Source of the DNA: an uncultured delta proteobacterium
Lineage (GTDB): Bacteria > Desulfobacterota > Desulfobulbia > Desulfobulbales > Desulfocapsaceae
Direction: 5' to 3'
Assembly (NCBI GenBank): GCA_903875445.1
Contig: CAIQWD010000027.1
Location: forward strand, 43,223-107,222
Length of the DNA: 64,000 bases
A program made the translations under genes and the position numbers. The notes below the pieces were generated by a model. The model made no database searches. It saw nothing but the letters and a program-made list of their open reading frames with translations, and was not told the DNA's origin. Below, piece after piece: positions 2 to 13,058 of this stretch. Position 1 is the first letter of the stretch, and each line of letters opens with the position of its first letter.

Positions 2-1474
2 TGCGGCACCGGCGGCATGCTGGCCGAGGCGCAGAATTGGATTCGCGCCCACAACGAACAGGCCACCGTCAAGGTCTACGGCCAGGATTACAACCCGCGC
101 TCCTATGCCGTCGCCGCCTCCGACCTGCTCATCAAGGGTCACAAGGACAGCCGCATCGAGTACGGCAATACCCTGACAAACGACCAGTTTCCCGACATGC
201 GCTTCGACTATCTGCTGGCCAATCCCCCCTTTGGTGTTGATTGGAAAGGGGAAAAGAAGGAAATCGATCGCTGGCCCAACTTTCGCGGCTACAACGGCAA
301 GCTGCCGCGCATCAACGATGGCGCGCTGCTGTTTTTGATCCATATGATTGCTAAGTTCCAACCCTGGCAGACCGGCAATCGCAATCTGCCCGGTTCGCGG
401 GTGGCTATCGTCTTCAATGGCTCGCCGCTGTTCACCGGCGGCGCGGGCAGTGGCGAGAGCGAAATCCGTCGCTGGATCATTGAAAACGACTGGCTCGAAG
501 CCATTGTCGCCCTGCCCGAGCAGATGTTCTACAACACCGGCATCGGCACTTTCATCTGGGTGCTCAGCAATCGCAAGGAGCAACACCGCGAAGGAAAAAT
601 CCAGCTGATCGATGCACGTGAACGCTTCACGCCGATGAAACGCAGCCTCGGCAACAAACGCCGCTATCTCGATGAAGCCGCCATCGCCACGCTTACCCGC
701 GAGCATGGCGCGTTGGAAGATTCGAAGACCAGCAAAGTTTTCGCCAATACCGATTTCGGCTACCGGCGTATTACCGTCCATCGCCCGCTGCGCTTGCGTT
801 TCCAGATGATTCGGGAGAATAAAGAGCGGTTTCTCGACACTTGCCCGGAACTGCTGGATGCCGTTCTGGCGCTGGAAGAAAGATTGGGCGCCGAACCCTA
901 TTTCAATTGGAATACCACCTGGGAAATGGTGCAGAAAACAGTCAAGGCCCTGCCGGATGACGAGGTCGGCTGGACAGCGGGCGCCAAAGGCACAGCCCAA
1001 AAAAAACTGTTCCGCGAGGTATTCACCGAGGTCGACCCGGAAGCAGAGCCGGTCATCGCCAAACAGTATAAGAATGAGAAGCTCGATATCGCCAACCTGT
1101 TTCCCGGCCAGAACCTGCCTCGCGAGCTGACACCTTCCCAGCTGCAAGCGGTGCTGGGCTTCTATGCCCAGGGAAAAGGCAAACTCATCGAATATGAGCC
1201 CGACCCGGCTCTCAAAGACAGTGAAAACATTCCCCTGAAGGAAGACATCGTCAGGTACTTCCTGCGTGAGGTCCGGCCCTATGTGGCTGATGCCTGGATC
1301 GATCGGGCAACGCTCGACGAACAGGATGGCGGTATCGGTAAGGTTGGCTACGAGATCAACTTCAACCGCGTGTTTTTCCAATACCAGCCGCCCCGCCCGC
1401 TGCACGAGATCGACCGGGAGCTTGCCGCTGTCGAGCAGCGGATTATGGATTTGCTGCGGGAGGTGACCGAGTGA
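2..1474 (+). CDS. hsdM: Type I R-M methyltransferase subunit, 5'-truncated by the window edge
   Basis: The frame from nt 2 reads CGTGGML (end of SAM-binding motif I). It has catalytic motif IV LANPPF, NGSPLFTGGAGSGES and a C-terminal GYEINFNR.F typical of HsdM. Confidence 0.95.
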   Translation, partial: CGTGGMLAEAQNWIRAHNEQATVKVYGQDYNPRSYAVAASDLLIKGHKDSRIEYGNTLTNDQFPDMRFDYLLANPPFGVDWKGEKKEIDRWPNFRGYNGKLPRINDGALLFLIHMIAKFQPWQTGNRNLPGSRVAIVFNGSPLFTGGAGSGESEIRRWIIENDWLEAIVALPEQMFYNTGIGTFIWVLSNRKEQHREGKIQLIDARERFTPMKRSLGNKRRYLDEAAIATLTREHGALEDSKTSKVFANTDFGYRRITVHRPLRLRFQMIRENKERFLDTCPELLDAVLALEERLGAEPYFNWNTTWEMVQKTVKALPDDEVGWTAGAKGTAQKKLFREVFTEVDPEAEPVIAKQYKNEKLDIANLFPGQNLPRELTPSQLQAVLGFYAQGKGKLIEYEPDPALKDSENIPLKEDIVRYFLREVRPYVADAWIDRATLDEQDGGIGKVGYEINFNRVFFQYQPPRPLHEIDRELAAVEQRIMDLLREVTE

Positions 1475-2583
1475 ACCTGCTGCTTTCCGACATCCGCGAC
1501 CTGATCCTCTCTGCCCGCCGGGCGGCGGTCCATTCCATTGATCTGCTTCAGGTGTTGACCAATTTTGAGATCGGCCACCGCATCATTGAGCATGAACAGC
1601 AGGGTGCGGAACGGGCCGAATACGGCAAAGCACTTCTCAAGGATTTGTCAACGGAACTCACAGCGGAATTTGGCAGAGGGTTTTCCCGTTCCAATTTGGA
1701 ATATATGCGAAAATTCTATTTGGCCTATAAAGACAGGGCATTGGCAATTTCCCAGATGCCATCTGGGAAATTGGCGGATGAACGAAAAGGTCAGCCACCA
1801 TTTTGCGAATCCTCTAAGGCAGAACTTCTGCTTGTCGCGGGCAAAGCTGACCGGCCGTTCTCTTTGAGCTGGTCGCAATATGTGTTTTTGGTTTCGATTA
1901 ATGATCTCGATGAGCGCCGGTTCTACGAAATTGAAGCATCGGCTAATGGCTGGACCTTGCCGGAACTGAAACGCCAGTTCAACACCGGCCTCTATGAACG
2001 TCTGGCCCTCAGTCTGGATAAAGACGGTATCCGCAAGCTGGCGGCGGAAGGGCAGATCGTCAGCCGCCCAGAAGACCTGCTGAAAGATCCCTACGTTCTG
2101 GAATTTCTCGGGCTCGATGAAAAGACCAGATATTCCGAATCAGACCTGGAAACTGCCATCATCAACAAGATCGAACACTTCCTGCTCGAACTGGGCAAGG
2201 GTTTTCTCTTTGAGGCCCGGCAGAAACGCTTCACCTTCGACGAGGAGCATTTCTTTGTCGATCTGGTCTTCTATAACCGCCTGCTGCGCTGCTATGTGCT
2301 GCTTGATCTGAAGATCGGCAAGCTCAATCATCAGCACCTCGGGCAGATGCAGATGTATGTCAACTATTTCGACCGCTTCGTTAAGCTGGCAGACGAAAAC
2401 CCGACTATCGGTATAGTCCTGTGCAAAAAGAAACATGACGCATTGGTGGAAATCACCTTGCCCAGGGACGCAAATATCCATGCCAAGGAATATCAACTCT
2501 ATTTGCCCGATAAGGAGCTGTTGCGCCGGAAGTTGGAGGAGTGGGGTGAAGAGGTGGATACTCGAAAAGAGGTGGGGGAATGA
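1471..2583 (+). CDS. YhcG/DUF1016-family PD-(D/E)xK nuclease-domain protein
   Basis: GRGFSRSNL..MRKFY, LSWSQY, KDPYVLEFLG, FVDLVFYNRLLRCYVLLDLK and GQMQMYVNYFDR. GTGA overlap with the hsdM stop. Confidence 0.9.
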   Translation: MNLLLSDIRDLILSARRAAVHSIDLLQVLTNFEIGHRIIEHEQQGAERAEYGKALLKDLSTELTAEFGRGFSRSNLEYMRKFYLAYKDRALAISQMPSGKLADERKGQPPFCESSKAELLLVAGKADRPFSLSWSQYVFLVSINDLDERRFYEIEASANGWTLPELKRQFNTGLYERLALSLDKDGIRKLAAEGQIVSRPEDLLKDPYVLEFLGLDEKTRYSESDLETAIINKIEHFLLELGKGFLFEARQKRFTFDEEHFFVDLVFYNRLLRCYVLLDLKIGKLNHQHLGQMQMYVNYFDRFVKLADENPTIGIVLCKKKHDALVEITLPRDANIHAKEYQLYLPDKELLRRKLEEWGEEVDTRKEVGE

Positions 2584-3920
2584 GTGCAAATCAGAGCAAG
2601 CGAGATTGGCAAGCAGTTCCTCTTCGTTATGTGTGTCAACTCAACCCGCCGGTGGATTTCGGTGCATTTGGAGAAGATGATGAGCTGACCTTTTTGCCCA
2701 TGGATAGGGTCAAGAGTGGTTACTTCATTCCCAATACCGACAAATTTTCAAAATACGCCTCTTCCTATAATTCTTTCGAGGAAGGGGATATTGTTTTGGC
2801 CAAAGTTACACCATGCTTCGAAAATGGTAACATTGCGATTGGTGAGAATCTTTTAGGGGGCAAGGGCTTTGGCAGTTCGGAATTGTTCGTGATTCGGGCA
2901 ACAGGTGTTGCTCGCAAATTCCTCTTCTATTACTTTCAATCTTCTACGTTCAAACAGGAAGGGGAAGCATCAATGACCGGTGCCGGTGGACTCAAGCGGG
3001 TATCACCAGACTTGCTCCGCCGGCATTATTTACCCTTGCCAGCAGTCAAAATCCAACACCAAATCGCCGACTACCTCGACCTTGAAACCGCCCGCATCGA
3101 TGAGCTGGTAGCGGAAAAACTGCACATGCTGGCCCTGCTGGAAGAAAAGCGAGTCGCCCTCATCAGCCGCGCTGTTACCCGCGGACTCAACCCCGACGCC
3201 CCCCTTAAACCCTCCGGCCTCGACTGGCTGGGGGATATTCCGGCGCATTGGGAAGTGATGCCAATTAAGTATGTTGCGACGGTTGGCAACGGATCAACGC
3301 CAGCCGTCGACAATGTGGACTATTGGGATGAAAACGGCTTTCCTTGGCTAAATAGCTCCGTTGTCAACGCCGATTATGTGAAGGAACCATCAAGGCATGT
3401 TACAGCCAAGGCGCTGACGGAGTGCCATCTGCCAACAATAAATCCCCCCGCCGTTTTGGTTGGCATTACGGGCCAAGGCAAAACTCGTGGGATGGCTTCG
3501 ATATTAACGATTGAGGCAACGATCAATCAGCATCTTGCGTTCGTAAAACCAAGGGGCGAAAGGATAACGGCAGAATATCTGCGTTACGTCCTCGTACGAG
3601 TATACTCTTTTCTCAGAAGCGACAGTGATGGCTCGGGGAGCACGAAAGGAGCCATTACATGTGAACAACTTGCGAACTTTCGTATCACGCTGCCTCCTGA
3701 AAATGAGCAAGTTCATATTGTTCGGCAAATTCAAGAAGGCAAGCGTGTCATGGATCGTATACAACAAGAACTTAACAGCTCAGTCAGACTTCTCAAGGAA
3801 CGCCGTGCCGCCTTGATTACAGCAGCCGTCATTGGGCAAATCAATTTCAGTCCAGACAGTAAAAATTGTAGAAGAATTGAAAATCGAGCAATCGAGGTCA
3901 ACGGGGATTTTCCTTGTTAA
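2580..3920 (+). CDS. hsdS: Type I R-M specificity subunit
   Basis: Two variable TRDs separated by the conserved helix IADYLD..TARIDEL...LLEEKR.ALIS.AVTRGL.P...LKPSG..WLG.IP.HW. C-terminal LKERR.ALITAAV.GQI. ATGA overlap with the upstream gene. Confidence 0.93.
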   Translation: MSANQSKRDWQAVPLRYVCQLNPPVDFGAFGEDDELTFLPMDRVKSGYFIPNTDKFSKYASSYNSFEEGDIVLAKVTPCFENGNIAIGENLLGGKGFGSSELFVIRATGVARKFLFYYFQSSTFKQEGEASMTGAGGLKRVSPDLLRRHYLPLPAVKIQHQIADYLDLETARIDELVAEKLHMLALLEEKRVALISRAVTRGLNPDAPLKPSGLDWLGDIPAHWEVMPIKYVATVGNGSTPAVDNVDYWDENGFPWLNSSVVNADYVKEPSRHVTAKALTECHLPTINPPAVLVGITGQGKTRGMASILTIEATINQHLAFVKPRGERITAEYLRYVLVRVYSFLRSDSDGSGSTKGAITCEQLANFRITLPPENEQVHIVRQIQEGKRVMDRIQQELNSSVRLLKERRAALITAAVIGQINFSPDSKNCRRIENRAIEVNGDFPC

Positions 3921-3963
3921 TTGCCTTGCCATACCGGTGAAAACTCTTTAAAGTTCCGATCTT

Positions 3964-4758
3964 ATGCACATGACCACCACACACTACACCTTGGGAGCAG
4001 CCCCCGTTACGGGAGCGGGCTTGGGTATATCGCCCACCGACCTCGACACTGCACTGTCCGGTCCGGTTGCTGCGGTGGTCTTTGACGATGCGGGCAATGA
4101 CAAAATAGCCGCGCTGCTCGGTGGCGTGGCCGATACGGAATTTACCCAGAACAATCTGGATGTGCTCCTGAAACATGAGCGCGAACCAGAAGACTGGCGC
4201 GTGGGCGAGGCACTGGCAGAATGCTATTTGTCGGAATGCAGGAGCTGCCATTTCCCCTGGCCCGATGGTCGCGATGAACGCAAGCGCGGTTCGAGTCTGC
4301 CGGGCGCGGATTTGGTGGGCTTTCACCGCGATGGCGAGGCTGATCACTTCGCCTTTGGCGAAGTGAAAACCTCAGCCGAACAATCTTATCCGCCCGGTGC
4401 CGCCTACGGACGACACGGATTAAAGCAACAGATGGAGGATTTGCGTGACCGGCGGGAGATTCGGGATGATCTGGTTAAATATCTTGCCCACCGTGCGGTG
4501 AATGCCACTTGGAAAGATCGTTTCCAGTCCGCCGCCGGAGTGTATTTGCGAGATCCTGGAGATGTGCGGATTTTTGGCCTATTGGTGCGAGATGTGCCGC
4601 CGAACGAGGATGACTTGCGTGCTCGGGTGAATGGGCTTGCGCAATACTGTCCAGCCTCGACGGTCATTGAGTTGCTGGCACTCTATCTCCCTCAAGGTCG
4701 AATTGCTACCTTGGGAGTACAGGTCGTGACATCTCGACGAAATGGAGGTGCCCGATGA
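3964..4758 (+). CDS. HamA-like (DUF1837-like) PD-(D/E)xK nuclease
   Basis: Motifs VGEALAECYL, GADLVGF and FAFGEVKTS match the GE / G.D / GE.K pattern of HamA-type nucleases. ATGA-coupled to the downstream helicase. Confidence 0.65.
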   Translation: MHMTTTHYTLGAAPVTGAGLGISPTDLDTALSGPVAAVVFDDAGNDKIAALLGGVADTEFTQNNLDVLLKHEREPEDWRVGEALAECYLSECRSCHFPWPDGRDERKRGSSLPGADLVGFHRDGEADHFAFGEVKTSAEQSYPPGAAYGRHGLKQQMEDLRDRREIRDDLVKYLAHRAVNATWKDRFQSAAGVYLRDPGDVRIFGLLVRDVPPNEDDLRARVNGLAQYCPASTVIELLALYLPQGRIATLGVQVVTSRRNGGAR

Positions 4759-7700
4759 GCCTGCGCAAAGAAGAACTGGATCGTGTGGACAATCACTGGG
4801 CCGTCCTCGCAGTAGGTGTCGAAGAGCGTGAACGTGGTCTGGAAGTTGCCAACGCGCGGCTGGTCGCCAAAGCGGTGGGCAGACAAATGCGCCTCGCTTT
4901 CGAAGAGCGGGCCAGCGACGGGGATTTACTGCACCGTCTCGCGATGGCCTACGAGATGGCCGCCATCGAAGGCCTGACGGCACTCCTCAACCTTTCCACC
5001 GCAGAGGACGATCGGCGGCAACAATGTGTCGCCGGAGCGTGGCGCGCCTTTGAACTAAGGCGCTTGTTCGAAGTTCCCGAGGCTGTTGAAGAACGCATCT
5101 TTCATGTCCTCCATTTATCGGCACTGGCTTATTGCGGCGATCGTTGGTCGGATATCCGGCGTTGGTATGTGGAGAATGGATGCAGCATCGTGGAGCTCTC
5201 CGCAGCGGATCAGCCATGGCACTACCGTTTGCTCTTCCGGCTCTTCGACTGTTGGGTGCGTCTTTTTCGCAAAAAAGGATGGGACGATCTCGACCGCATC
5301 CGGGAAATTGTGGCCGGGTTGCGGGAGGATCAGCGGCAATACGAGCGGACTTCCCTTGACAGTGGCTCTAATGAGCAGGACCGGGCCATGGCGTTGAGGC
5401 TGATTGCATTCTATAACTGGGCCAAGGCCACGGAACTGCTAGCTAAGTATGTATTGCAGGGCGAGCCAAGGGGCATCAACGCGCTCCTCGACAAACATTT
5501 CGAGGCGGCGGCGGAAGCGGCGATCGCTGCGGACGACGCTCAACTGGAAATCCTCATGCGGTGGCTGCATGCGACCGCCCGGCAGATGATTTCCGGTTCG
5601 CTCTGGTGGGTTGCCCACTCAATCAATTCACGGGTCACTCGTTTTGTCGGGTCTTCCACCAAACATCAGGCCATGTTTGAGCTGTTGCCGCCGCAAAGGG
5701 CGGCCTTGCAGGAACAGGGGCTGCTCGATCAAGCGGCCACGGCGGTGGTTATCGATCTGCCGACGTCAGGAGGAAAGACCCTGCTGGCTCAATTCCGCAT
5801 TCTCCAAGCTCTCAATCAATTCGCCGAAGAAAGTGGTTGGGTTGCCTACGTGGTGCCTACTCGTGCCCTCAGCGCCCAAATCACCCGCCGCTTGCGCCGC
5901 GATTTTACGCCAATCGGCGTGCGCGTGGAGCAACTGACCGGTGCTGTTGAGATTGATGCCATCGAAGCGGAGATGCTCTCAGCGCAGGCGCGTGGCGATG
6001 AGCGCAGCTTCGACGTGCTGGTGGCGACACCGGAAAAGTTACAGCTGGTGATCCGAAATAAAAAGGTGCAGCGTCCGCTCGCGTTGATCGTGATGGACGA
6101 GGCCCACAACATGGAGAGCAAGTCGCGCGGAATGCGTATTGAGCTGCTGTTGGCTACGGTCAAACAGGAGAGCAATCAGGCGAATTTTCTGCTATTGATG
6201 CCGTTTGTTGAAAAAGCGGAGGCACTCGCACGATGGCTTGCCAATGATGTTGGCGGCGGTCGCTCGATCAGTCTCGGCACCAGTGTCTGGAGACCCAACG
6301 AGCGCATTGTCGGTATGTTTCGTGCTGAGGCAGACGATAACCAGAGAGCAGGGTGGCGGCTCCAATATCAAACTTTGGTCACAACACCGAAAACGATTCA
6401 TCTGGCTGGAATCCATCAAGTAGGCGGGATAAAGCCGCTCGACTTAGCCAAATCCAAGTTGATCAGGGCAAATGGGGAGCAACAGGGCTTTGGCCTCCAG
6501 GCAGCTGCAATGGCCACAGTCTTTTCCTCGCGAGGCACAAGTATCGCAGTCGGGGGAACAATTCCCTCGGCATGGTCCATGGCACGGGAGGCAGCGAAGA
6601 AACTGCCACCAATCGACACACCATCAGAGCGTATTCAGCTCGTCCAAAAGTTCCTTGCAGCGGAGATCAGCCCTGACTTCGAGTTAGTTGAGATGCTTGC
6701 CCGAGGGGTTGCCGTGCATCATGCGGGCCTTTCCGACGAGATGAGAGCGCTTGTCGAATGGTTGGCGGAGGAAGGCGATATCCGCGTGCTTTGCGCGACG
6801 ACTACGCTGGCTCAGGGCATCAATTTCCCGGTTTCATCGGTATTTTTGGCTACAACATCAATGAAATCGCGGAAGTTTCCGTATCAAGTTGATATGGTAC
6901 CCCGCGAATTTTGGAATCTGGCTGGGCGTGCGGGCCGCATGAATCAGGACAGCGTTGGAGTTGTTGGTATCGCCGAGGCGAACCGGACAGAAGAGATCGT
7001 TCGTTTCGTGAAAGAAGCTACGGGGGAACTGGTGTCACGCTTGGTGATTGTCGTGGCAGAACTGGATGCGGCCAATTCGCCCGATGAACTCTCCGCAGTA
7101 ATTCAACAAGAGCAATGGGAAGACTTCCGCTGCTATGTGACCCACCTCGTTCATGAGATCGGCAACTTGGAACGCGTTCTTTCGAGTACTGAGTTGTCCC
7201 TACGCAACACCTTTGGCTACCGTGTCCTTCAAGAAAGCGTCGAAGGTCGTACTCGTGCCCAAAAATTGATCGAAGCCACCAAACAATACGCGCGGAAAAT
7301 TTCGGCTAATCCCGGCCAAGTGGCGATGGCCGACATGACCGGCTTTTCGTTCGAGGGGGTCGGGAGAGCATTGAGCGGAGTCAGCGCTCTTGAGCGGAAG
7401 CTTACGGCCAATGATTTTTCCGCTGAACGACTTTTTGGAAACGACGGCGGCATGGCTGACTTTTATGGCATCATGCTCCGCATTCCTCAACTTGCACGAA
7501 ACTTGGACGAACTCACGACCTCCGGCACTGACAACCGTCAACTGGCGGACATAACCAAAGCTTGGGTGGAAGGGCGGAGTCTTCGGGAAATCGCCAGAAC
7601 CTATTTCCAAGTGGACGGCGACGCCACTCTTGCGATTACGAAGGCATGTCGCGCCATCTATCGGAACCTTGCCAACAACGGGACGTGGGGGTTATCCGCG

Positions 7701-8036
7701 CTCAGTCGGCTATCGGGAATAGATTTCGAAATTCTTACGCCTCAGCAGAAGCGGCAAATCGATCTACTCCCGGCGATGATTTACCACGGCGTGAAGACAG
7801 AGGAAGGTGTCCTCATGCGCATGAATGGCGTTCCCCGCTCGATTGCCGAGCGAATGGGCGAACGTTATCAACAAATAGGCAACGCGGATGGCGTTGGATC
7901 TGGCATCCAGAAAGTCCGGCAATTTCTCGGTTCGGCGGATATTGAAACCTGGAATCGGGCGCGTCCCAGCAACGCCCCTCTCTCCGGCCGAGAATATAAG
8001 GAAGTCTGGAAAGTTATTTCTGGTGACGAGCGATAA
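4755..8036 (+). CDS. Ski2-like SF2 DEAH helicase (HamB-like), 1093 aa, with a ~300-aa N-terminal helical region
   Basis: LPTSGGKT (motif I), VPTRALSAQ (Ia), VATPEK (Ib), MDEAHN (II), HHAGLS, ATTTLAQGINFP (V) and NLAGRAGR (VI). Confidence 0.9.
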   Translation: MSLRKEELDRVDNHWAVLAVGVEERERGLEVANARLVAKAVGRQMRLAFEERASDGDLLHRLAMAYEMAAIEGLTALLNLSTAEDDRRQQCVAGAWRAFELRRLFEVPEAVEERIFHVLHLSALAYCGDRWSDIRRWYVENGCSIVELSAADQPWHYRLLFRLFDCWVRLFRKKGWDDLDRIREIVAGLREDQRQYERTSLDSGSNEQDRAMALRLIAFYNWAKATELLAKYVLQGEPRGINALLDKHFEAAAEAAIAADDAQLEILMRWLHATARQMISGSLWWVAHSINSRVTRFVGSSTKHQAMFELLPPQRAALQEQGLLDQAATAVVIDLPTSGGKTLLAQFRILQALNQFAEESGWVAYVVPTRALSAQITRRLRRDFTPIGVRVEQLTGAVEIDAIEAEMLSAQARGDERSFDVLVATPEKLQLVIRNKKVQRPLALIVMDEAHNMESKSRGMRIELLLATVKQESNQANFLLLMPFVEKAEALARWLANDVGGGRSISLGTSVWRPNERIVGMFRAEADDNQRAGWRLQYQTLVTTPKTIHLAGIHQVGGIKPLDLAKSKLIRANGEQQGFGLQAAAMATVFSSRGTSIAVGGTIPSAWSMAREAAKKLPPIDTPSERIQLVQKFLAAEISPDFELVEMLARGVAVHHAGLSDEMRALVEWLAEEGDIRVLCATTTLAQGINFPVSSVFLATTSMKSRKFPYQVDMVPREFWNLAGRAGRMNQDSVGVVGIAEANRTEEIVRFVKEATGELVSRLVIVVAELDAANSPDELSAVIQQEQWEDFRCYVTHLVHEIGNLERVLSSTELSLRNTFGYRVLQESVEGRTRAQKLIEATKQYARKISANPGQVAMADMTGFSFEGVGRALSGVSALERKLTANDFSAERLFGNDGGMADFYGIMLRIPQLARNLDELTTSGTDNRQLADITKAWVEGRSLREIARTYFQVDGDATLAITKACRAIYRNLANNGTWGLSALSRLSGIDFEILTPQQKRQIDLLPAMIYHGVKTEEGVLMRMNGVPRSIAERMGERYQQIGNADGVGSGIQKVRQFLGSADIETWNRARPSNAPLSGREYKEVWKVISGDER

Positions 8037-8196
8037 GGTTTGTACGGCGCTGGATGTGTCGCCCCCACTGGCCAATGCGCTGATCCGCGAGTTCGTGCAG
8101 CTTGGCATCCTGCAGGAAGTCACCGGACAGCAGCGGGGACGGGTTTTTGTCTTCCAACGTTACTTAAGCCGTTACTTAAGCCTCTTCGTTATTTAA
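8031..8196 (+). pseudogene. C-terminal HTH remnant of a Fic-family protein
   Basis: Reads KVCTALDVSPPLANALIREFVQLGILQEVTGQQRGRVFVFQRYLSRYLSLF, like the tail of Fic-HTH proteins. No start and no Fic HPFxxGNGR motif. Confidence 0.6.
8158..8181 (+). repeat. 12-bp tandem duplication CGTTACTTAAGC x2
   Basis: Seen directly. It gives RYLS-RYLS in the Fic remnant frame. Confidence 0.9.
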
Positions 8197-8422
8197 AATT
8201 GGCGACGTTTCTTTAATTAAGGCAGCTAGTAAATTAAAGTTGAGCAAAGGAATCATTGCCATTAAACAGACCAGCGAGGCCGTGTAGCTCGCTAAGGGCT
8301 ATCTACAAACATTCGTCCCAAAACAAGCAACCGTGAACGAGTGGTCTTCCCAAAAAAGATGGAGGCGTGAGGTACGTTACTCACGGTGCAAAGGTCACCT
8401 TGCAAATACAGCTTTTTGTCCC

Positions 8423-8483
8423 TTGACCTGCATAAGCACCAATGGTACACATAAAGTAATAAAAAATGTAACCTTATGTGGAC
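8423..8483 (+). promoter_or_regulatory. Putative abiE promoter with overlapping inverted-repeat operator
   Basis: TTGACC at 8423-8428. Imperfect inverted repeat GTACACATAAAG (8445-8456) / CCTTATGTGGAC (8472-8483), 10/12 match, just upstream of the antitoxin start. AbiEi proteins autorepress through promoter inverted repeats. Confidence 0.45.
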
Positions 8484-8490
8484 TATGCCC

Positions 8491-9039
8491 ATGCAACCGA
8501 TGAAGGAATTAGCCCGACTTCTGGAGCACCTGGCTAGCGCAGAGCAGTATCTCTTTTCGCCGGATGATCTGCGTAGCGCCTTGCCGGAAGCAAGTCCGGG
8601 CGCGTTCAAGGCTTTGCTCTGTCGGGCGGAGAAGGCCGGGCTGCTGCGACGGGTCTGCCGGGGAATCTATCTGTACCCTCGGGTGGCCTACCCGGCCGGG
8701 CTGGTCCTGTTTCATGCGGCGGCAAAACTGCGGGCGGATGCCTTCAATTACCTGAGTCTTGAGACGGTGTTGAGTGATGCCGGGGTGATATCACAGATCC
8801 CCCTGAACTGGGTTACTCTGATGTCTTCGGGGCGCAGCCATATCGTAGACTGCGGGGATTTCGGTCATATCGAATATATCCACAGCAAACGCCGGTCGGC
8901 GAATGTCGCCGACCGGTTGAACTATGATCAAGACTGTCGTCTGTGGCGGGCCTCGGTGTCTCTTGCCCTGCTGGATATGAAGTTGACCCGGCGCAGTATG
9001 GACCTGATCGATTGGGAGGTGGCCGATGAACATGTTTGA
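8491..9039 (+). CDS. Type IV TA antitoxin, AbiEi family (likely start MQPM at 8491; ORF opens at 8476)
   Basis: wHTH-type LRRVCRGIYLYP, then YLSLETVLSDAGVISQIP..W.T.MSSGRS and C-terminal SMDLIDWEVA. Confidence 0.8.
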   Translation: MQPMKELARLLEHLASAEQYLFSPDDLRSALPEASPGAFKALLCRAEKAGLLRRVCRGIYLYPRVAYPAGLVLFHAAAKLRADAFNYLSLETVLSDAGVISQIPLNWVTLMSSGRSHIVDCGDFGHIEYIHSKRRSANVADRLNYDQDCRLWRASVSLALLDMKLTRRSMDLIDWEVADEHV

Positions 9040-9112
9040 GCAGTTGGTCGAACAAGCATATCTCGTCGGTTTTGTCGCTGATGAATGCGAACGGGTGCGA
9101 CGGGAAGCCTGA
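9026..9112 (+). pseudogene. AbiEii toxin remnant (28-aa mini-ORF, apparent large internal deletion)
   Basis: SD GGAGGT at 9015-9020. ATG overlaps the antitoxin 3' end. Translates MNMFEQLVEQAYLVGFVADECERVRREA*, resembling the toxin N-terminus (M.LF..LV..A) joined to a toxin-like C-terminal helix. Confidence 0.6.
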
Positions 9113-9150
9113 AGGATGAATACGATATGAAGAACCAGGGGGAGTAGGGC

Positions 9151-12100
9151 ATGAAACAGACCAGCGAAGCCGCCTTTGAAACCGCCATCGAGGCCGTATT
9201 GCTGGCCGATGGGTATCAGAAGCTAGGGTCCAGCGAGTTCGACCGCGAGCGGGCAATCTTTCCTGAAGTGGCGTTGGATTTCATTCGCGCAACCCAGGCC
9301 AAAACCTGGGACAAACTGCAAACCCTGCACGGCGAGCAGACCGGCGACAGAGTGCTGGAAGCACTCTGTAAATGGCTGGACACCTACGGGGTGTTAGCTA
9401 CGCTGCGCCATGGCTTCAAGTGTTTCGGCAAGACTCTGCGCATCGCCTTCTTCCGCCCGGCGCATGGCCTCAACCCAGAGCTTGAGGCGCGCTATCAGGC
9501 CAACCGGCTGGGCCTGACACGGCAACTGCATTTCAGCCCCAAGAATGAAAAGTCGCTGGATGTGGTGCTGTCGGTCAACGGCGTGCCGGTGGTGACGCTG
9601 GAACTGAAGAACCCGCTTTCCGGCCAGTCGTTGGCCAATGCCATCCACCAATATCGCCATGACCGCGATCCGCGTGAGCTGATCTTTCAGTTCACCAAGC
9701 GCACGTTGGTGCATTTTGCCGTGGACACGGAAGAGGTGCACATGACCACCCGCCTGGCCGGCGCCGGCAGCCATTTCTTACCCTTCAACCGGGGTAATCA
9801 GGGGGGCGCCGGCAATGAACCCGACACGGCGGGCCGCAACTACAAGACGGCCTATCTGTGGGAAGAGGTCTTGCAACGTGACAGCCTGCTCGATCTGCTG
9901 GCCCGCTTTCTCCATCTGGACGTGCAGGAGAAGATTGCCGAAGACGGCAAGAAGATGCGCAAGGAAACCATGATCTTCCCGCGTTATCACCAGTTGCAGG
10001 CCGTACGCCGGATGGTTGCGGCAGCGGGTGTCGAAGGCGTGGGACACACCTACCTGGTCGAGCATTCGGCGGGGAGCGGCAAGAGCAACACCATCGGCTG
10101 GCTGGCGCATCGTCTTTCCTCGCTGCATAACGACAATGACCAGCGGATTTTCGACAGCGTGGTGGTGATCACCGATCGGGTGGTGCTGGATCGGCAGTTG
10201 CAGAATACCATCTACCAGTTCGACCACCGCCAGGGCGTGGTGCAGAAGATCGACGAAGACTCACGCCAGTTGGCCGAGGCACTGGAATCCGGGGTGCCGA
10301 TCGTTATCACCACCTTGCAGAAGTTTCCATTTGTGTCCGGGCAGTTGATGAAGCTTTCGGAGGAGCACGGTGGTCCCTCTCGGGCGTCCTGCCCTCCGGG
10401 ACATAAGCCCATCCCTGGGCAAAAAAAAGGTTCCAGCCATTTGCCGATGCGCCAATATGCGGTGATTATCGATGAGGCCCACAGTTCACAGTCCGGCGAA
10501 ACCGCCACTGAACTAAAAGGTGTTTTGGGTGGTGCTCAGCTGCGTCAATTAGCCCGGCAAATGGCCGAGGAAGAAGGCAAAGTTGAATTGGAGCGCCTGT
10601 TCCGTTCCATGGCCAAACGTGGTCACCAACCGAACATGAGTTTCTTCGCCTTCACCGCCACGCCCAAACACAAAACCCTGGCCATCTTCGGCAGGGGCGG
10701 TGAACCCTTCCACCGCTATACCATGCGGCAGGCCATCGAAGAGGAATTTATCGAGGATGTGCTGGCCAGCTATGTGACCTACAAGACCTATTACAAACTC
10801 ATCAAGAAAGCGGAGGACGATCCCAACGTCGAGCGCAAGAAGGCGGCTCGGGCGCTCGCCCGCTTTATGCGACTGCACCCGCACAATATCGGGCAAAAGA
10901 CCGAGGTGATGGTCGAGCATTTCCAGCAGCATACCCGGCATAAGATCGGTGGTCGCGCCAAGGCCATGGTGGTAACCGGCTCGCGGCTGGAGGCGGTGCG
11001 TTACAAGCAGGAGTTTGATCGCTACATAGGCGAGAAGGGCTATCCCATCAAGAGTCTGGTGGCCTTTTCCGGCATTGTTGAAGATGATAAGCTGCCCGAG
11101 AAGACCTACACCGAGGTTGCAATGAACTCCGGGGTAAAAGAGAAGGAGCTGCCCGATACCTTTGCCAAGCCCGATTACCGTGTGTTGCTGGTTGCCGAGA
11201 AATATCAGACCGGTTTTGACCAGCCGTTGTTGCATACCATGTACGTTGACAAGCGGTTGGCGGGCATTCAGGCGGTGCAGACTTTGTCACGGTTGAATCG
11301 GACGCATCCGCTGAAGGACGATACCTTTGTCCTCGATTTCGTCAATGACCCGAGCGAGATTCAAGAGGCCTTTCGTCAGTACTACGAAGGCTCGGTGATG
11401 GGCGAGCAAGTGGACCCGGACAAGCTCTATGAGGTGAAAGCAGAGCTTGATGCCTCGGGCATGTATCTGCAACCCGAGGTGGACGACTTTACTGCCATCT
11501 TCTTTGCTCCCAAACGCCGCCAGAGCCCGTCCGATCACAAAGCCATGAATGCGATCCTTGATCAGGCGGTGGCGCGGTTTCGGCAGTTGCAAATTACCGA
11601 AGAGGAGGAGGCCGAATTGTGGCGCGGCAAGATGCAGGCCTTTCGTAATCTCTACAGTTTTTTGAGCCAGGTGATACCCTATCAGGACAGTGATCTGGAG
11701 AAGTTATTCACCTACTTGCGGCATCTCGCCTTGAAATTGCCAAAGCGTAAGAGCGGCCCCGGCTATCAATTCGATGAAGAGGTTGAACTCGATTACTACC
11801 GGTTACAGAAGATCAGTGAAGGTTCCATCAGTTTAAGCGAAGGCTACGCCAAACCGCTCGATGGGCCGCGCGAGGTGGGCACGGGCGAGGTTCGCGAAGA
11901 GTACGTGACACTGTCACGCCTGATCGACATCATCAATGAGCGCTTTGGCAGCGAGATGAATGAAGCGGATCAGCTCTTTTTCGATCAAATCGCCGAGGCG
12001 GCAAGTAGGAATGAATCACTGCAAAAAGCTGCGGGAGTCAATTCTCTTGATAAATTTCAACTGGTGTTCCGGCAGGTTCTCGAATCGTTGTTTATTGAGC

Positions 12101-12246
12101 GTATGGATCTTAATGAAGGGCTGTTTACCGATTATATGAGTAAACCTGAAATGCAGGAGCTTGTATCCAAGTGGCTGGGAACCCAGGTGTATGATCGATT
12201 GGCCGGGGTTGAAAAACGGCAACATTCGGAATTACTTGCTAAGTGA
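9151..12246 (+). CDS. hsdR: Type I R-M restriction/motor subunit
   Basis: Nuclease motif DVVLSVNGVPVVTLELKN, PRYHQL, HSAGSGKS (Walker A), IIDEAHSSQ, FTATPK, KYQTGFDQP and QTLSRLNR. Confidence 0.95.
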   Translation: MKQTSEAAFETAIEAVLLADGYQKLGSSEFDRERAIFPEVALDFIRATQAKTWDKLQTLHGEQTGDRVLEALCKWLDTYGVLATLRHGFKCFGKTLRIAFFRPAHGLNPELEARYQANRLGLTRQLHFSPKNEKSLDVVLSVNGVPVVTLELKNPLSGQSLANAIHQYRHDRDPRELIFQFTKRTLVHFAVDTEEVHMTTRLAGAGSHFLPFNRGNQGGAGNEPDTAGRNYKTAYLWEEVLQRDSLLDLLARFLHLDVQEKIAEDGKKMRKETMIFPRYHQLQAVRRMVAAAGVEGVGHTYLVEHSAGSGKSNTIGWLAHRLSSLHNDNDQRIFDSVVVITDRVVLDRQLQNTIYQFDHRQGVVQKIDEDSRQLAEALESGVPIVITTLQKFPFVSGQLMKLSEEHGGPSRASCPPGHKPIPGQKKGSSHLPMRQYAVIIDEAHSSQSGETATELKGVLGGAQLRQLARQMAEEEGKVELERLFRSMAKRGHQPNMSFFAFTATPKHKTLAIFGRGGEPFHRYTMRQAIEEEFIEDVLASYVTYKTYYKLIKKAEDDPNVERKKAARALARFMRLHPHNIGQKTEVMVEHFQQHTRHKIGGRAKAMVVTGSRLEAVRYKQEFDRYIGEKGYPIKSLVAFSGIVEDDKLPEKTYTEVAMNSGVKEKELPDTFAKPDYRVLLVAEKYQTGFDQPLLHTMYVDKRLAGIQAVQTLSRLNRTHPLKDDTFVLDFVNDPSEIQEAFRQYYEGSVMGEQVDPDKLYEVKAELDASGMYLQPEVDDFTAIFFAPKRRQSPSDHKAMNAILDQAVARFRQLQITEEEEAELWRGKMQAFRNLYSFLSQVIPYQDSDLEKLFTYLRHLALKLPKRKSGPGYQFDEEVELDYYRLQKISEGSISLSEGYAKPLDGPREVGTGEVREEYVTLSRLIDIINERFGSEMNEADQLFFDQIAEAASRNESLQKAAGVNSLDKFQLVFRQVLESLFIERMDLNEGLFTDYMSKPEMQELVSKWLGTQVYDRLAGVEKRQHSELLAK
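10382..10428 (+). repeat. Twin mini-hairpin segment in frame within hsdR
   Basis: GGGC-GTCCT-GCCC (10382-10394) and GCCCA-TCCC-TGGGC (10407-10420), followed by A8. It encodes the Pro/Gly-rich stretch GPSRASCPPGHKPIPGQKK. Confidence 0.5.
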
Positions 12247-12300: not shown

Positions 12301-13058
12301 ATGAGTAGGGAAAAAGCTGCGAGTTTTCGCCCAACCGCCATGGGCCAGTTTCTAGTCTACGAGGCTGAAGATGGCCGCATTAAGATCGATGTGCGGTTGG
12401 AGAATGAGACGGTCTGGTTGACTCAACGCTTGATGGCCGAGCTGTTCCAGAAGGATGTGCGGACGATCAACGAACATATCCAGAATGTCTATGAAGAGCG
12501 CGAACTGGAGCCGGAGGCAACTATCCGGAAATTCCGGATAGTTCAAAAAGAGGGGGCACGGGACGTCACTCGGATGGTTGATTTCTTCAAGACCGTGCAG
12601 AACAAGATGCACTGGGCGATCACCGGCAAAACCGCGGCTGAAATTGTCCACAGTCGTGCCGATGCCGACAAGGCCAACATGGGGTTGACCAACTGGCGCG
12701 ACGCGAAGGTACGCAAACAGGACGTAGCCATCGCCAAAAACTATCTGGACGCAGGTGAACTGGCGGCACTGAATAATCGGTGGAGCAATACCTGATCTTC
12801 GCCGAAGGCCAGGCCATGCGCCGCATCCCCATGCATATGGATGACTGGCTGAAAAAGCTCGACGCCTTTTTGAATATCAACGACCGTGATATCCTTTGCC
12901 ATGCCGGCAAAATCTCCCATGAGATGGCGCGGCTGGCAGTGGAAGACGAATATGAGAAATTTCACCGCAAACAGATTGCCGAACTCGACCGGATGGGCAA
13001 TGAATTTGACAGATTGGCCCAACAACTGCCTGGTGGCAAACGGGGGAAACAAGAATGA
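12301..13058 (+). pseudogene. rhuM: RhuM-family protein, internally deleted and frameshifted
   Basis: The N-terminus (ETVWLTQRLMAELFQKDVRTINEHI) runs directly into FFKTVQNKMHWAITGKTAAE. The frame breaks near 12778 and continues as VEQYLIFAEGQAMRRIPMHM..W..KLDAFL...ISHEMA. Confidence 0.8.

What the first reader, a model, noticed from the sequence alone, without database searches (positions are those of the whole stretch)
3964..8036. Intact Hachiman-like nuclease-helicase pair nested inside a type I R-M operon
Seen: a 264-aa ORF with GEALAECYL / GADLVGF / GEVKTS is ATGA-coupled to a 1093-aa Ski2-like helicase. The helicase has all core motifs except a canonical SAT (LLLMPF at the motif III position) and carries a ~300-aa helical N-terminus. 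The pair sits between hsdS and hsdR. Established: Hachiman (HamA nuclease plus HamB Ski2-like helicase) and AbpAB are anti-phage pairs of this architecture. Inference: this is a divergent Hachiman-like or new sister system that could back up R-M, for example by responding to DNA ends or damage when restriction fails. It is the best candidate here for an undescribed system.
Basis: partly seen in the sequence, partly recalled or inferred. Interest (0 to 1): 0.8.

Follow-up and report, generated by a model that had tools for sequence, protein, structure and literature searches.

The report
Divergent Hachiman-type nuclease-helicase defence pair
Two intact, overlapping genes nested in a restriction-modification operon encode a very distant relative of the Hachiman anti-phage nuclease-helicase system; one public database already lists the pair as an untested defence candidate, PDC-M23.

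Summary
ORF A (3964-4758, 264 aa) and ORF B (4755-8036, 1093 aa) overlap by ATGA, carry the quoted motifs and lie between hsdS and hsdR.

PADLOC's models name them PDC-M23A (4.5e-98) and PDC-M23B (E=0, 1411 bits). PDC-M23 is a computationally predicted, untested "phage defence candidate" from Payne et al. 2024, found by embedding in other defence systems. So the pair is catalogued, not undescribed.

The Hachiman inference holds at fold level:
- A gets no Pfam or PADLOC HamA hit. Its model (pLDDT 95) matches the three HamA chains in the PDB first, and E82/D116/E133/K135 are conserved.
- 11 of 89 relatives of A give sub-threshold PF08878 hits over the catalytic core.
- B hits HamB models at 1e-54. 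Only HamB chains align with its N-terminal helical domain.

In 78 of 78 related loci B directly follows A, and the two proteins co-vary (r=0.91). About a third of well-flanked loci (17/53) sit inside type I R-M operons.

Most likely this is a deeply diverged Hachiman subtype: a helicase-gated DNase causing abortive infection. A role backing up R-M is untested. Interest is moderate.

The parts
3964..4758 (+). Gene A: 264-aa HamA-like PD-(D/E)xK nuclease (PADLOC PDC-M23A). Catalytic candidates are E82, D116, E133 and K135.
   Evidence: ORF. PDC-M23A 4.5e-98 over the full length. No Pfam or NCBIfam hit. AF2 pLDDT 95.1. Foldseek top hits are HamA 8vxy_A (3.9e-7) and 8vx9_A (3.1e-6, TM 0.59/0.60). 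Residue conservation.
4744..4758 (+). Translational-coupling junction: GGAGG (4744-4748) inside the 3' end of A, then ATGA (4755-4758), where B's start overlaps A's stop.
   Evidence: Sequence. The same 4-nt overlap recurs in most related loci (A end = B start + 3). The A-to-B gap is -1 to +50 nt in 78/78 loci.
4755..8036 (+). Gene B: 1093-aa HamB-like Ski2-type SF2 helicase (PADLOC PDC-M23B). It has a HamB-type N-terminal helical domain (1-~300), a RecA1/RecA2 core (~305-760) and a C-terminal region. The motif III position reads NFLLLMPF.
   Evidence: PDC-M23B E=0, 1411 bits; HamB1 models 1e-54 over 226-1019. DEAD, ResIII and Helicase_C domains. PDB sequence hits include SLH1, ASCC3, Brr2, Hel308 and HamB. 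Foldseek of residues 1-555: HamB chains at 1.6e-11 to 1.1e-10 with 541-587 aligned columns; other helicases align over the RecA1 part only, a few longer low-quality alignments aside. Motif conservation.
3926..3954 (+). Promoter-like site TTGCCA-17-TAAAGT in the 43-nt hsdS-A spacer. Weak lead only.
   Evidence: The region holds fewer promoter-like sites (3) than shuffles (7.7), so this is not evidence of function.
17..1474 (+). hsdM of the host type I R-M operon (5' end cut by the window edge).
   Evidence: N6_Mtase 3.8e-38.
1471..2583 (+). YhcG/DUF1016 PD-(D/E)xK nuclease gene embedded between hsdM and hsdS (PADLOC candidate PDC-S02).
   Evidence: YhcG_C 1.8e-52 and DUF1016_N 2.9e-35. PDC-S02 2.3e-135.
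2580..3920 (+). hsdS of the host type I R-M operon.
   Evidence: Methylase_S 8.1e-21, two stretches.
8017..8196 (+). 3' remnant of a Fic-family gene, beginning about where B ends.
   Evidence: ORF 7888..8196 residues 44-94 match SoFic profile positions 306-356 of 361, E=9.3e-7.
8476..9039 (+). AbiEi antitoxin/regulator gene without its AbiEii partner.
   Evidence: NCBIfam TAA_AbiEi 2.1e-54 and PADLOC AbiEi 9e-60. L001 has a 287-aa ORF after AbiEi, and about 775 nt are missing here.
9151..12246 (+). hsdR of the host type I R-M operon.
   Evidence: SWI2_SNF2, HSDR_N, ResIII and T1R_D3-like domains.

Best explanation
A and B form a deeply diverged subtype of the Hachiman (HamAB) anti-phage system. 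It is the family PADLOC lists as candidate PDC-M23, here carried as cargo inside a type I R-M operon.

Proposed mechanism, by analogy with E. coli HamAB (Tuck et al. 2024, PMC12278908):
1. The two proteins are made in fixed ratio from translationally coupled genes and form a heterodimer. B's N-terminal helical domain holds the A nuclease inactive.
2. B surveys DNA and engages 3' ssDNA, ends or damage that appear during phage replication.
3. ATP-driven movement of B then frees or activates A.
4. A's E82/D116/E133-x-K135 metal site degrades DNA indiscriminately, aborting the infection.

Shown here:
- gene structure and overlap;
- strict A-B linkage and co-variation;
- the HamA-like fold and conserved catalytic residues of A;
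- the HamB-like N-terminal domain and intact motifs I, II, V and VI of B;
- sporadic cross-phylum distribution and frequent embedding in R-M operons.

Inferred:
- the A-B complex;
- DNA as substrate;
- the trigger;
- the abortive outcome;
- any anti-phage phenotype.
For: Identity: PDC-M23A 4.5e-98 and PDC-M23B E=0, both full length. The candidate is defined in Payne et al..

A is HamA-like:
- AF2 pLDDT 95.1, pTM 0.92.
- The three best Foldseek PDB hits are the three HamA entries: 8vxy_A 3.9e-7, 8vx9_A 3.1e-6 (271 columns, TM 0.59/0.60) and 8zue_A 1.3e-3. FokI follows at 2.5e-2.
- PF08878 'HamA' is the only Pfam family recurring among 89 relatives (11 hits, best 2.4e-5). PADLOC HamA1 models are hit by 14 of 89.
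- Those weak hits cover member residues ~83-146 and profile positions 50-114, which is the catalytic core.
- The model places the helix carrying E82 at 77-92, D116 just before strand 117-123, and E133/K135 in strand 126-137. That is the PD-(D/E)xK topology.

B is HamB-like:
- HamB1 and HamB2 models score down to 1e-54, covering 226-1019 of the protein and 142-929 of a 995-position model.
- HamB 8vx9_B scores 2.5e-24 by sequence.
- Foldseek of residues 1-555 gives only HamB chains over the whole length.

A and B behave as a unit:
- B follows A in 78/78 loci that have room.
- Pairwise identities of A and B correlate at r=0.91, Mantel 0/999.

Defence context:
- 17/53 fully flanked loci are embedded between hsdM/S and hsdR/S.
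- Neighbours of non-embedded loci include AAA_21, OLD/GajA, AriA, MADS, HerA, REase, integrase and transposase genes.
- Relatives occur across many bacterial phyla and in archaea.
Against: - The window's A is not recognised by Pfam PF08878 or any PADLOC HamA model, even at E<=1.
- The family's best PF08878 scores among the ten members inspected (18 bits) are below the 25-bit gathering cut-off.
- A profile of the A family finds no HamA chain in the PDB by sequence and does not align with AbpA (hhalign probability 0.1).
- TM-scores to HamA and HamB are moderate (0.53-0.60) at 12-20% identity.
- By sequence, B scores no better against HamB than against eukaryotic Ski2-like helicases.
- Motif III lacks Ser/Thr in every family member examined, so B may not unwind as HamB does.
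- No complex prediction, biochemistry or phage assay exists. No paper in the searched library reports a test of PDC-M23.
- The neighbour survey is descriptive, not a statistical enrichment.
Confidence: 0.7

Rival explanations
1. The pair guards the type I R-M system in the manner of PrrC. It would associate with the Hsd complex, or read its products (DNA ends made by HsdR, or an R-M complex blocked by a phage anti-restriction protein), and fire only when restriction fails.
For: The pair lies inside the hsd operon with no convincing terminator on either side. 17/53 well-flanked loci are embedded the same way, in R-M operons whose HsdR is only 22-26% identical to this one while A and B stay 55-63% identical. 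That suggests repeated capture. Payne et al. cite PrrC as a system found almost only inside type I R-M.
Against: 36 of 53 well-flanked loci show no Hsd genes around the pair detectable with the window's proteins. The pair therefore persists and stays intact without R-M. Hachiman itself works alone in E. coli. Nothing in A or B resembles an Hsd-binding module.
Confidence: 0.1
2. The pair is a housekeeping or stress-related DNA repair module, a Hel308-like helicase with a partner nuclease, and not an immune system.
For: B's strongest named NCBIfam hits are archaeal Hel308-type 'ATP-dependent DNA helicase' equivalogs (8.2e-42). Hel308, Pol theta and ASCC3 appear among the PDB hits. HamAB itself responds to DNA damage.
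Against: All NCBIfam scores are far below their cut-offs (143 bits against 887). Distribution is patchy across unrelated phyla, with 80%+ identity between a Desulfobulbaceae window and Chlorobiaceae MAGs, which is typical of mobile accessory genes. The pair is embedded in R-M operons and has defence or mobile neighbours. The N-terminal domain matches only HamB.
Confidence: 0.08
3. The pair is canonical Hachiman (type I/AbpAB or ECOR31-type HamAB) that annotation simply missed.
For: It has the same two-gene order and 4-nt overlap as abpA/abpB in E. coli K-12. HamB models hit B. The B family aligns with AbpB at 96% hhalign probability.
Against: A has no HamA hit in Pfam or PADLOC and is 12-13% identical to HamA in the structural alignment. 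A lacks AbpA's Cap4-type N-terminal domain (264 aa against 538 aa), and hhalign to AbpA gives nothing. PADLOC's own PDC-M23 models score about 1400 bits against 184 bits for the best HamB model.
Confidence: 0.07

Closest known systems
PADLOC phage defence candidate PDC-M23 (Payne, Hughes, Fineran, Jackson; bioRxiv 10.1101/2024.01.29.577857; PADLOC-DB v2)
   Same: Both proteins match the PDC-M23A and PDC-M23B models over their full length (4.5e-98; E=0). They are adjacent and embedded in a type I R-M operon, which is the criterion by which the candidate was defined.
   Different: Nothing differs; this locus is a member. PDC-M23 is a prediction only. No function, fold or relation to Hachiman appears in the parts of the text and stored supplementary tables I read or searched, and it was not among the systems tested there or in the cold-seep study.
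Hachiman HamAB, E. coli ECOR31 type (PDB 8VX9, 8VXA, 8VXY; Tuck et al. 2024, PMC12278908)
   Same: A small D-E(x)K nuclease gene sits directly upstream of a large Ski2-like helicase gene of about 1100 aa. A has the HamA fold, and HamA chains are its top PDB hits. B has the HamB-specific N-terminal helical domain plus the helicase core. The catalytic E-x-K lies at nearly the same position (E133/K135 here, E138/K140 in HamA).
   Different: Identity is 12-13% for A and 19-20% for B. Pfam and PADLOC HamA models do not recognise A. Motif III reads LLLMP instead of LSAILP. The pair is often embedded in type I R-M operons. Complex formation, the DNA-damage trigger and the phenotype are untested.
AbpAB (YfjL/YfjK), Hachiman type I of E. 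coli K-12
   Same: Nuclease gene then helicase gene with a 4-nt overlap. The helicase core is homologous (hhalign 96%, E 4.2e-9). Motif III is similarly atypical, 'FYLTGPFV' against 'FLLLMPFV'.
   Different: AbpA is 538 aa, with a Cap4-like nuclease fused to a catalytically inactive HamA domain. A is a single 264-aa domain with intact catalytic residues, and the A family shows no hhalign match to AbpA. AbpB (729 aa) has only ~115 residues before the core, against ~300 in B.
Hel308/Hjm and other Ski2-like helicases (Brr2, ASCC3, SLH1)
   Same: The RecA1/RecA2 core with motifs I, Ia, II, V and VI.
   Different: They have no partner nuclease and no HamB-type N-terminal domain; Foldseek aligns them over only ~190-256 columns. 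They keep a canonical SAT, and NCBIfam equivalog cut-offs are missed by a wide margin.

Membership tests
PADLOC PDC-M23 | Protein A matches a PDC-M23A model and protein B a PDC-M23B model over their full length. | tested here: met
   PDLC04529 4.5e-98 (residues 3-255 against 5-258 of 265). PDLC04531 E=0, 1411 bits (13-1090 against 4-1059 of 1060).
PADLOC PDC-M23 | The two genes are adjacent on one strand, and the cassette is found embedded in BREX, DISARM or type I R-M. | tested here: met
   ATGA overlap. The pair lies between hsdS and hsdR. Table S8 of the preprint lists CAS_00096 = FAM_02460>>FAM_00699 as PDC-M23.
Hachiman (HamAB) | HamA is recognised as DUF1837/PF08878 (or by PADLOC HamA models) at curated thresholds. 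| tested here: not met
   The window's A has no Pfam or PADLOC HamA hit even at E<=1. 11 of 89 relatives give PF08878 hits (best 2.4e-5). Where bit scores were inspected (10 members), the hits were 15-18 bits against the 25-bit gathering cut-off.
Hachiman (HamAB) | The small protein has the HamA fold. | tested here: met
   AF2 pLDDT 95.1. Foldseek PDB ranks 1-3 are HamA chains, probability 1.00/1.00/0.97, TM 0.54-0.60 over 261-271 columns for the first two.
Hachiman (HamAB) | A conserved D-E(x)K metal-dependent nuclease motif in the small protein. | tested here: met
   D116, E133 and K135 (plus E82) are present in 69/69 loci. In the 89-sequence family alignment K135 and E82 are invariant and D116 and E133 are >=90% conserved.
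Hachiman (HamAB) | The large protein is an SF2 Ski2-like helicase homologous to HamB. | tested here: met
   More than 20 PADLOC HamB1/HamB2 models hit, best 1e-54 over 226-1019. HamB 8vx9_B scores 2.5e-24 by sequence and 3.5e-30 by profile. Motifs I, II, V and VI are conserved.
Hachiman (HamAB) | HamB-specific N-terminal helical HamA-interaction domain, absent from other Ski2 helicases (Tuck et al.). | tested here: met
   Residues 1-285 are all-helical with pLDDT above 90. Only HamB chains align over the whole 555-residue model with significant scores (541-587 columns, E 1.6e-11 to 1.1e-10). Other helicases align over the RecA1 part only.
Hachiman (HamAB) | The nuclease gene sits immediately upstream of the helicase gene and the two are inherited as a unit. 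| tested here: met
   78/78 loci. Identity matrices correlate at r=0.91, Mantel 0/999.
Hachiman (HamAB) | A and B form a physical heterodimer in which the helicase restrains the nuclease. | not testable with these tools
   Only single-chain prediction was available, and a fused A+B sequence would exceed the length limit and the tool's input rules.
Hachiman (HamAB) | Anti-phage protection and activation by DNA damage, with ATP-dependent DNA degradation. | not testable with these tools
   This needs experiments. No published test of PDC-M23 was found.
AbpAB (Hachiman type I) | A nuclease subunit with an N-terminal Cap4-like domain fused to an inactive HamA domain. | tested here: not met
   A is 264 aa, a single domain with intact catalytic residues. 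AbpA is 538 aa. hhalign of A2 against AbpA gives probability 0.1.
PrrC-like R-M-dependent guard | Found almost exclusively inside type I R-M operons. | tested here: not met
   17 of 53 fully flanked loci are embedded. This is a lower bound, since Hsd genes were detected with the window's proteins only.
Hel308-type DNA repair helicase | Reaches the NCBIfam equivalog cut-off for Hel308 / ATP-dependent DNA helicase. | tested here: not met
   Best score is 143 bits against a cut-off of 887; helicase_Hel308 scores 105 against 1200.

The most novel reading that the evidence does not exclude
The PDC-M23 clade may be a Hachiman offshoot with a changed control logic. Every member examined has hydrophobic LLLMP where motif III (SAT) normally couples ATP hydrolysis to strand separation. 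B could therefore act as an ATP-gated sensor or translocase rather than an unwinding helicase.

The clade has also been captured repeatedly by unrelated type I R-M operons. Its natural trigger could therefore be a product or failure state of restriction, such as DNA ends made by HsdR or an Hsd complex jammed by an anti-restriction protein. That would make it a second layer wired to R-M rather than a free-standing genome-integrity sensor.
Probability: 0.12. Interest if true: 0.65.

Novelty: new variant of a known kind. Interest (0 to 1): 0.4.

Why it matters
Hachiman is one of the commoner broad-spectrum defence systems, and its mechanism was solved only in 2024. If PDC-M23 is a remote Hachiman clade, three things follow:
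- one of PADLOC's 145 unexplained candidates gets a concrete, testable mechanism;
- the known sequence space of HamA and HamB grows, and current HMM-based tools would be shown to undercount Hachiman;
- there is a natural variant with an altered motif III, frequently co-transcribed with type I R-M, in which to ask how helicase movement gates the nuclease and whether layered defences are functionally coupled.

The gain is incremental. The architecture and likely chemistry are those of a known system, and the gene pair is already catalogued.

Tried and rejected
- A sequence profile of the A family against all PDB chains found only chance-level hits (E>1) and no HamA. Fold comparison was needed.
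- hhalign of the A family against E. coli AbpA gave no match. The template was a single sequence and AbpA's HamA domain is itself aberrant, so this is weak negative evidence.
- The full-length B homolog search timed out. Searching with the N-terminal third returned only fragments of 556 aa or less, so a full-length B model with a proper alignment could not be made.
Only residues 1-555 were modelled, and the RecA1 part has low confidence.
- tblastn of A found no match in 72,556 plasmids or 50,697 phage records, so there is no evidence that plasmids or phages carry it.
- No paper in the library contains 'PDC-M23'. Searches for Hachiman with embedding in type I R-M, and for 'guilt-by-embedding', found no functional study. 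The cold-seep study tested PDC-S02 and PDC-S05 but not M23.
- The promoter and terminator scan was uninformative (counts at or below shuffles). No tRNA genes occur in the window.
- I considered and rejected three readings: canonical Hachiman, a Hel308-type repair helicase, and an obligate R-M accessory. See the rival explanations and the membership tests.

Full report
**1. Observation**

The ORF list confirms gene A at 3964..4758 (+, 264 aa) and gene B at 4755..8036 (+, 1093 aa).

The junction reads GGAGGtgcccgATGAgc. B's ATG overlaps A's TGA by four bases, and a Shine-Dalgarno-like GGAGG lies inside the end of A.

The quoted motifs are all present:
- In A: GEALAECYL (81-89), GADLVGF (114-120) and GEVKTS (132-137).
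- In B: PTSGGKT, MDEAH, TTTLAQGINFPV and AGRAGR.
- At the motif III position in B: NFLLLMPF (477-484).

HMMER alignments place that last stretch opposite 'GLSAT' of Hjm, 'GMSTA' of SLH1 and 'CLSAILP' of HamB.

All genes in the neighbourhood are on the + strand:

| Coordinates | Gene |
|---|---|
| 17..1474 | hsdM, cut by the window edge |
| 1471..2583 | YhcG/DUF1016 nuclease gene |
| 2580..3920 | hsdS |
| 3964..4758 | A |
| 4755..8036 | B |
| ~8017-8196 | Fic-gene remnant |
| 8476..9039 | AbiEi |
| 9151..12246 | hsdR |
| 12301..13058 | decayed RhuM gene |

So the pair is nested in a type I R-M operon, though B is not directly adjacent to hsdR.

**2. What the databases call it**

PADLOC-DB v2 models PDC-M23A and PDC-M23B match A and B over their full length (4.5e-98; E=0, 1411 bits).

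PDC-M23 is one of 145 'phage defence candidates' from Payne, Hughes, Fineran and Jackson (bioRxiv 10.1101/2024.01.29.577857). They were derived by 'guilt-by-embedding' from gene cassettes nested in BREX, DISARM and type I R-M systems. Table S8 lists cassette CAS_00096 (FAM_02460>>FAM_00699, 161 cassettes in RefSeq v209) as PDC-M23.

The seven systems tested in that paper were Hma-embedded candidates, not PDCs. No paper in the searchable library contains 'PDC-M23'. A cold-seep study that tested eight PADLOC candidates did not include it.

The pair is therefore catalogued but functionally untested, and I found no statement linking it to Hachiman.

**3. Is A a HamA?**

By sequence, the window's protein is not recognisable as one:
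- It has no Pfam, NCBIfam or PADLOC HamA hit.
- A family profile finds nothing in the PDB.
- hhalign to E. coli AbpA is null.

The family is sizeable and self-contained: 2463 homologs and 571 clusters at 50% identity.

An 89-sequence alignment reaching 27% identity keeps E82, K135, G114, G119, S137, P144, Q156 and D217 invariant. D116, E133, R103 and D104 are >=90% conserved. This is an E...D...ExK signature.

With that alignment AlphaFold2 gives pLDDT 95.1 and pTM 0.92. E82 lies on helix 77-92, D116 just before strand 117-123, and E133/K135 on strand 126-137. That is the PD-(D/E)xK core arrangement.

Foldseek against the PDB ranks the three HamA entries first:
- 8vxy_A, E 3.9e-7;
- 8vx9_A, E 3.1e-6, 271 columns, TM 0.59/0.60;
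- 8zue_A, E 1.3e-3;
- then FokI at 2.5e-2.

There is also a faint sequence bridge. PF08878 (now named HamA) is the only Pfam family hit repeatedly when the 89 members are scanned singly (11 members, best 2.4e-5). PADLOC HamA1 models are hit by 14. The matches fall on the catalytic core (member residues ~83-146, profile positions 50-114). The two whose bit scores I inspected were below the gathering score, at 15-18 bits against 25.

I conclude that A is a remote homolog of HamA with an intact active site. It lies outside what current HamA models capture.

**4. Is B a HamB?**

More than twenty PADLOC HamB models hit B. The best scores 1e-54 and aligns residues 226-1019 with 142-929 of a 995-position model, well beyond the helicase core.

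By plain sequence against the PDB, HamB (2.5e-24) scores no better than SLH1, ASCC3, Brr2 or Hel308. The discriminating feature is therefore the N-terminal domain.

Tuck et al. [quoted passage not shown]

I could model only residues 1-555. Residues 1-285 are all-helical with pLDDT above 90. Foldseek ranks three HamB chains first (E 1.6e-11 to 1.1e-10) with 541-587 aligned columns, which is the whole model. Other helicases match over the RecA1 part only, at E >= 6e-4.

B thus has the HamB-specific architecture, and its length (1093 aa) is close to ECOR31 HamB (1174 aa).

**5. The pair as a unit, and its context**

A scan of one genome per species found 213 relatives of A, of which 80 loci were fetched.

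- Linkage: in all 78 loci with sequence downstream of A, a B homolog follows within -1 to +50 nt, mostly with the same 4-nt overlap.
- Co-variation: pairwise identities of A and B across 69 pairs correlate at r=0.91, with no Mantel permutation of 999 reaching that value.
- Conservation: the catalytic residues of A are present in 69/69, and helicase motifs I, II, V and VI are retained apart from rare single substitutions.
- Distribution: hosts span Desulfobacterota, Chlorobiota, Verrucomicrobiota, Planctomycetota, Proteobacteria, Acidobacteriota, Firmicutes (Paenibacillus agri) and archaea (ANME-1, Methanosarcinales).
- Closest loci: the closest is a Desulfobulbaceae MAG (L001, 97% identity). 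The whole operon hsdM-YhcG-hsdS-A-B-hsdR is 81-87% identical in a Chlorobiaceae MAG (L003), which points to horizontal transfer of the operon.
- Embedding: of 53 loci with at least 6 kb upstream and 5 kb downstream, 17 are embedded between hsdM/S and hsdR/S on the same strand. This is a lower bound.
- Host operons: in most embedded loci HsdR is only 22-26% identical to the window's while A and B remain 55-63% identical. That fits repeated capture by different R-M lineages.
- Other neighbours: non-embedded loci have AAA_21, OLD/GajA, AriA, MADS, HerA, type II REase, integrase and transposase genes nearby. This has a defence-island or mobile flavour but is not a formal enrichment.
- Mobility: no homolog of A occurs in the plasmid or phage collections.

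**6. Mechanism**

The best-supported explanation is Hachiman-like. A heterodimer forms in which B's N-terminal domain restrains A. B engages aberrant DNA, such as 3' ssDNA, ends or damage. ATP-driven motion then activates A, which degrades DNA and aborts infection.

What is shown here is homology, conserved active sites, linkage and context. The complex, substrate, trigger and phenotype are inferred from E. coli HamAB.

A family-wide peculiarity is the hydrophobic motif III, NFLLLMP(F/Y)V in all 69 sequences. In SF2 helicases this motif couples ATP hydrolysis to unwinding (established knowledge from DEAD-box and Ski2 studies), so B might translocate or switch rather than unwind. The feature is not unique, however: E. 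coli AbpB reads 'FYLTGPFV' at the aligned position.

**7. Rivals**

- A PrrC-like guard dependent on R-M is disfavoured, because two thirds of loci lack R-M around the pair.
- A housekeeping Hel308-type repair role is disfavoured by the patchy distribution, the R-M embedding, the HamB-only N-terminal domain and NCBIfam scores far below cut-off.
- Canonical Hachiman is excluded by the failure of HamA models and by PADLOC's own models scoring about eight times higher than HamB models.

**8. Novelty and verdict**

This locus is a member of the already catalogued candidate PDC-M23. What the analysis adds is that PDC-M23 is, at fold level, a deeply diverged Hachiman.

I rate it a new variant of a known kind. 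Interest is moderate (0.4). It gives a testable mechanism to an orphan candidate and offers an interesting helicase variant and R-M association, but the architecture and chemistry are those of a known system and nothing has been tested experimentally.

Noticed in passing
window 8476-9039 and 9040-9150; L001 9040-10453: The AbiEi antitoxin/regulator gene has lost its AbiEii toxin partner. The near-identical locus L001 carries a 287-aa ORF right after AbiEi. blastn shows about 775 nt (L001 ~9622-10396) missing from the window at position ~9056.
   Followed up: partly
window 7888-8196 (homologous part ~8017-8169): A 102-aa ORF overlaps the 3' end of B. Its residues 44-94 match the extreme C-terminus of PADLOC's SoFic model (positions 306-356 of 361, E 9.3e-7). 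It looks like the 3' remnant of a Fic gene, beginning about where B ends, which may mark an old insertion or deletion boundary.
   Followed up: partly
window ~8250-8300; L001 8787-8990: A short duplicate of the 5' end of hsdR lies upstream of AbiEi in both the window and L001: '...IKQTSEAV' in the window, and 'MKQTSEAAFEAALEAVLLADGY...' within a 67-aa ORF in L001. This may be a footprint of the AbiE cassette inserting at the start of hsdR.
   Followed up: partly
window 1471-2583: A second embedded gene lies between hsdM and hsdS: a YhcG/DUF1016 PD-(D/E)xK nuclease matching PADLOC candidate PDC-S02 (2.3e-135). A PDC-S02 representative gave no protection against T4, T5 or T7 in the cold-seep study (bioRxiv 10.1101/2024.09.26.614923).
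   Followed up: partly
window 12301-12795 and 12780-13058: A RhuM-family gene (PADLOC PDC-S05) lies downstream of hsdR. It is split into two overlapping frames and lacks about 100 profile positions, so it is probably a pseudogene. A PDC-S05 representative reduced plating of T7 and T5 about 1000-fold in the cold-seep study.
   Followed up: partly
L003 5710-17195 (Chlorobiaceae MAG) compared with window 17-12246: The whole operon hsdM-YhcG-hsdS-A-B-hsdR is syntenic and 81-87% identical at protein level (hsdS 54%, YhcG 72%) between a Chlorobiaceae MAG and this probably Desulfobulbaceae window. That indicates cross-phylum transfer of the R-M operon together with its embedded cargo. L003 lacks the Fic remnant and AbiEi.
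   Followed up: partly
L081 5352-9154 (E. coli K-12 abpB/abpA): abpA and abpB overlap by 4 nt, as A and B do. AbpB also has a non-canonical motif III ('FYLTGPFV'), so an atypical motif III may be common among Hachiman helicases.
   Followed up: partly
window 13330-15171: Just beyond the R-M island lies a 613-aa ORF that looks like a hybrid sensor histidine kinase with a C-terminal receiver domain, judged from the translation only. No tRNA gene occurs anywhere in the 64-kb window.
   Followed up: no
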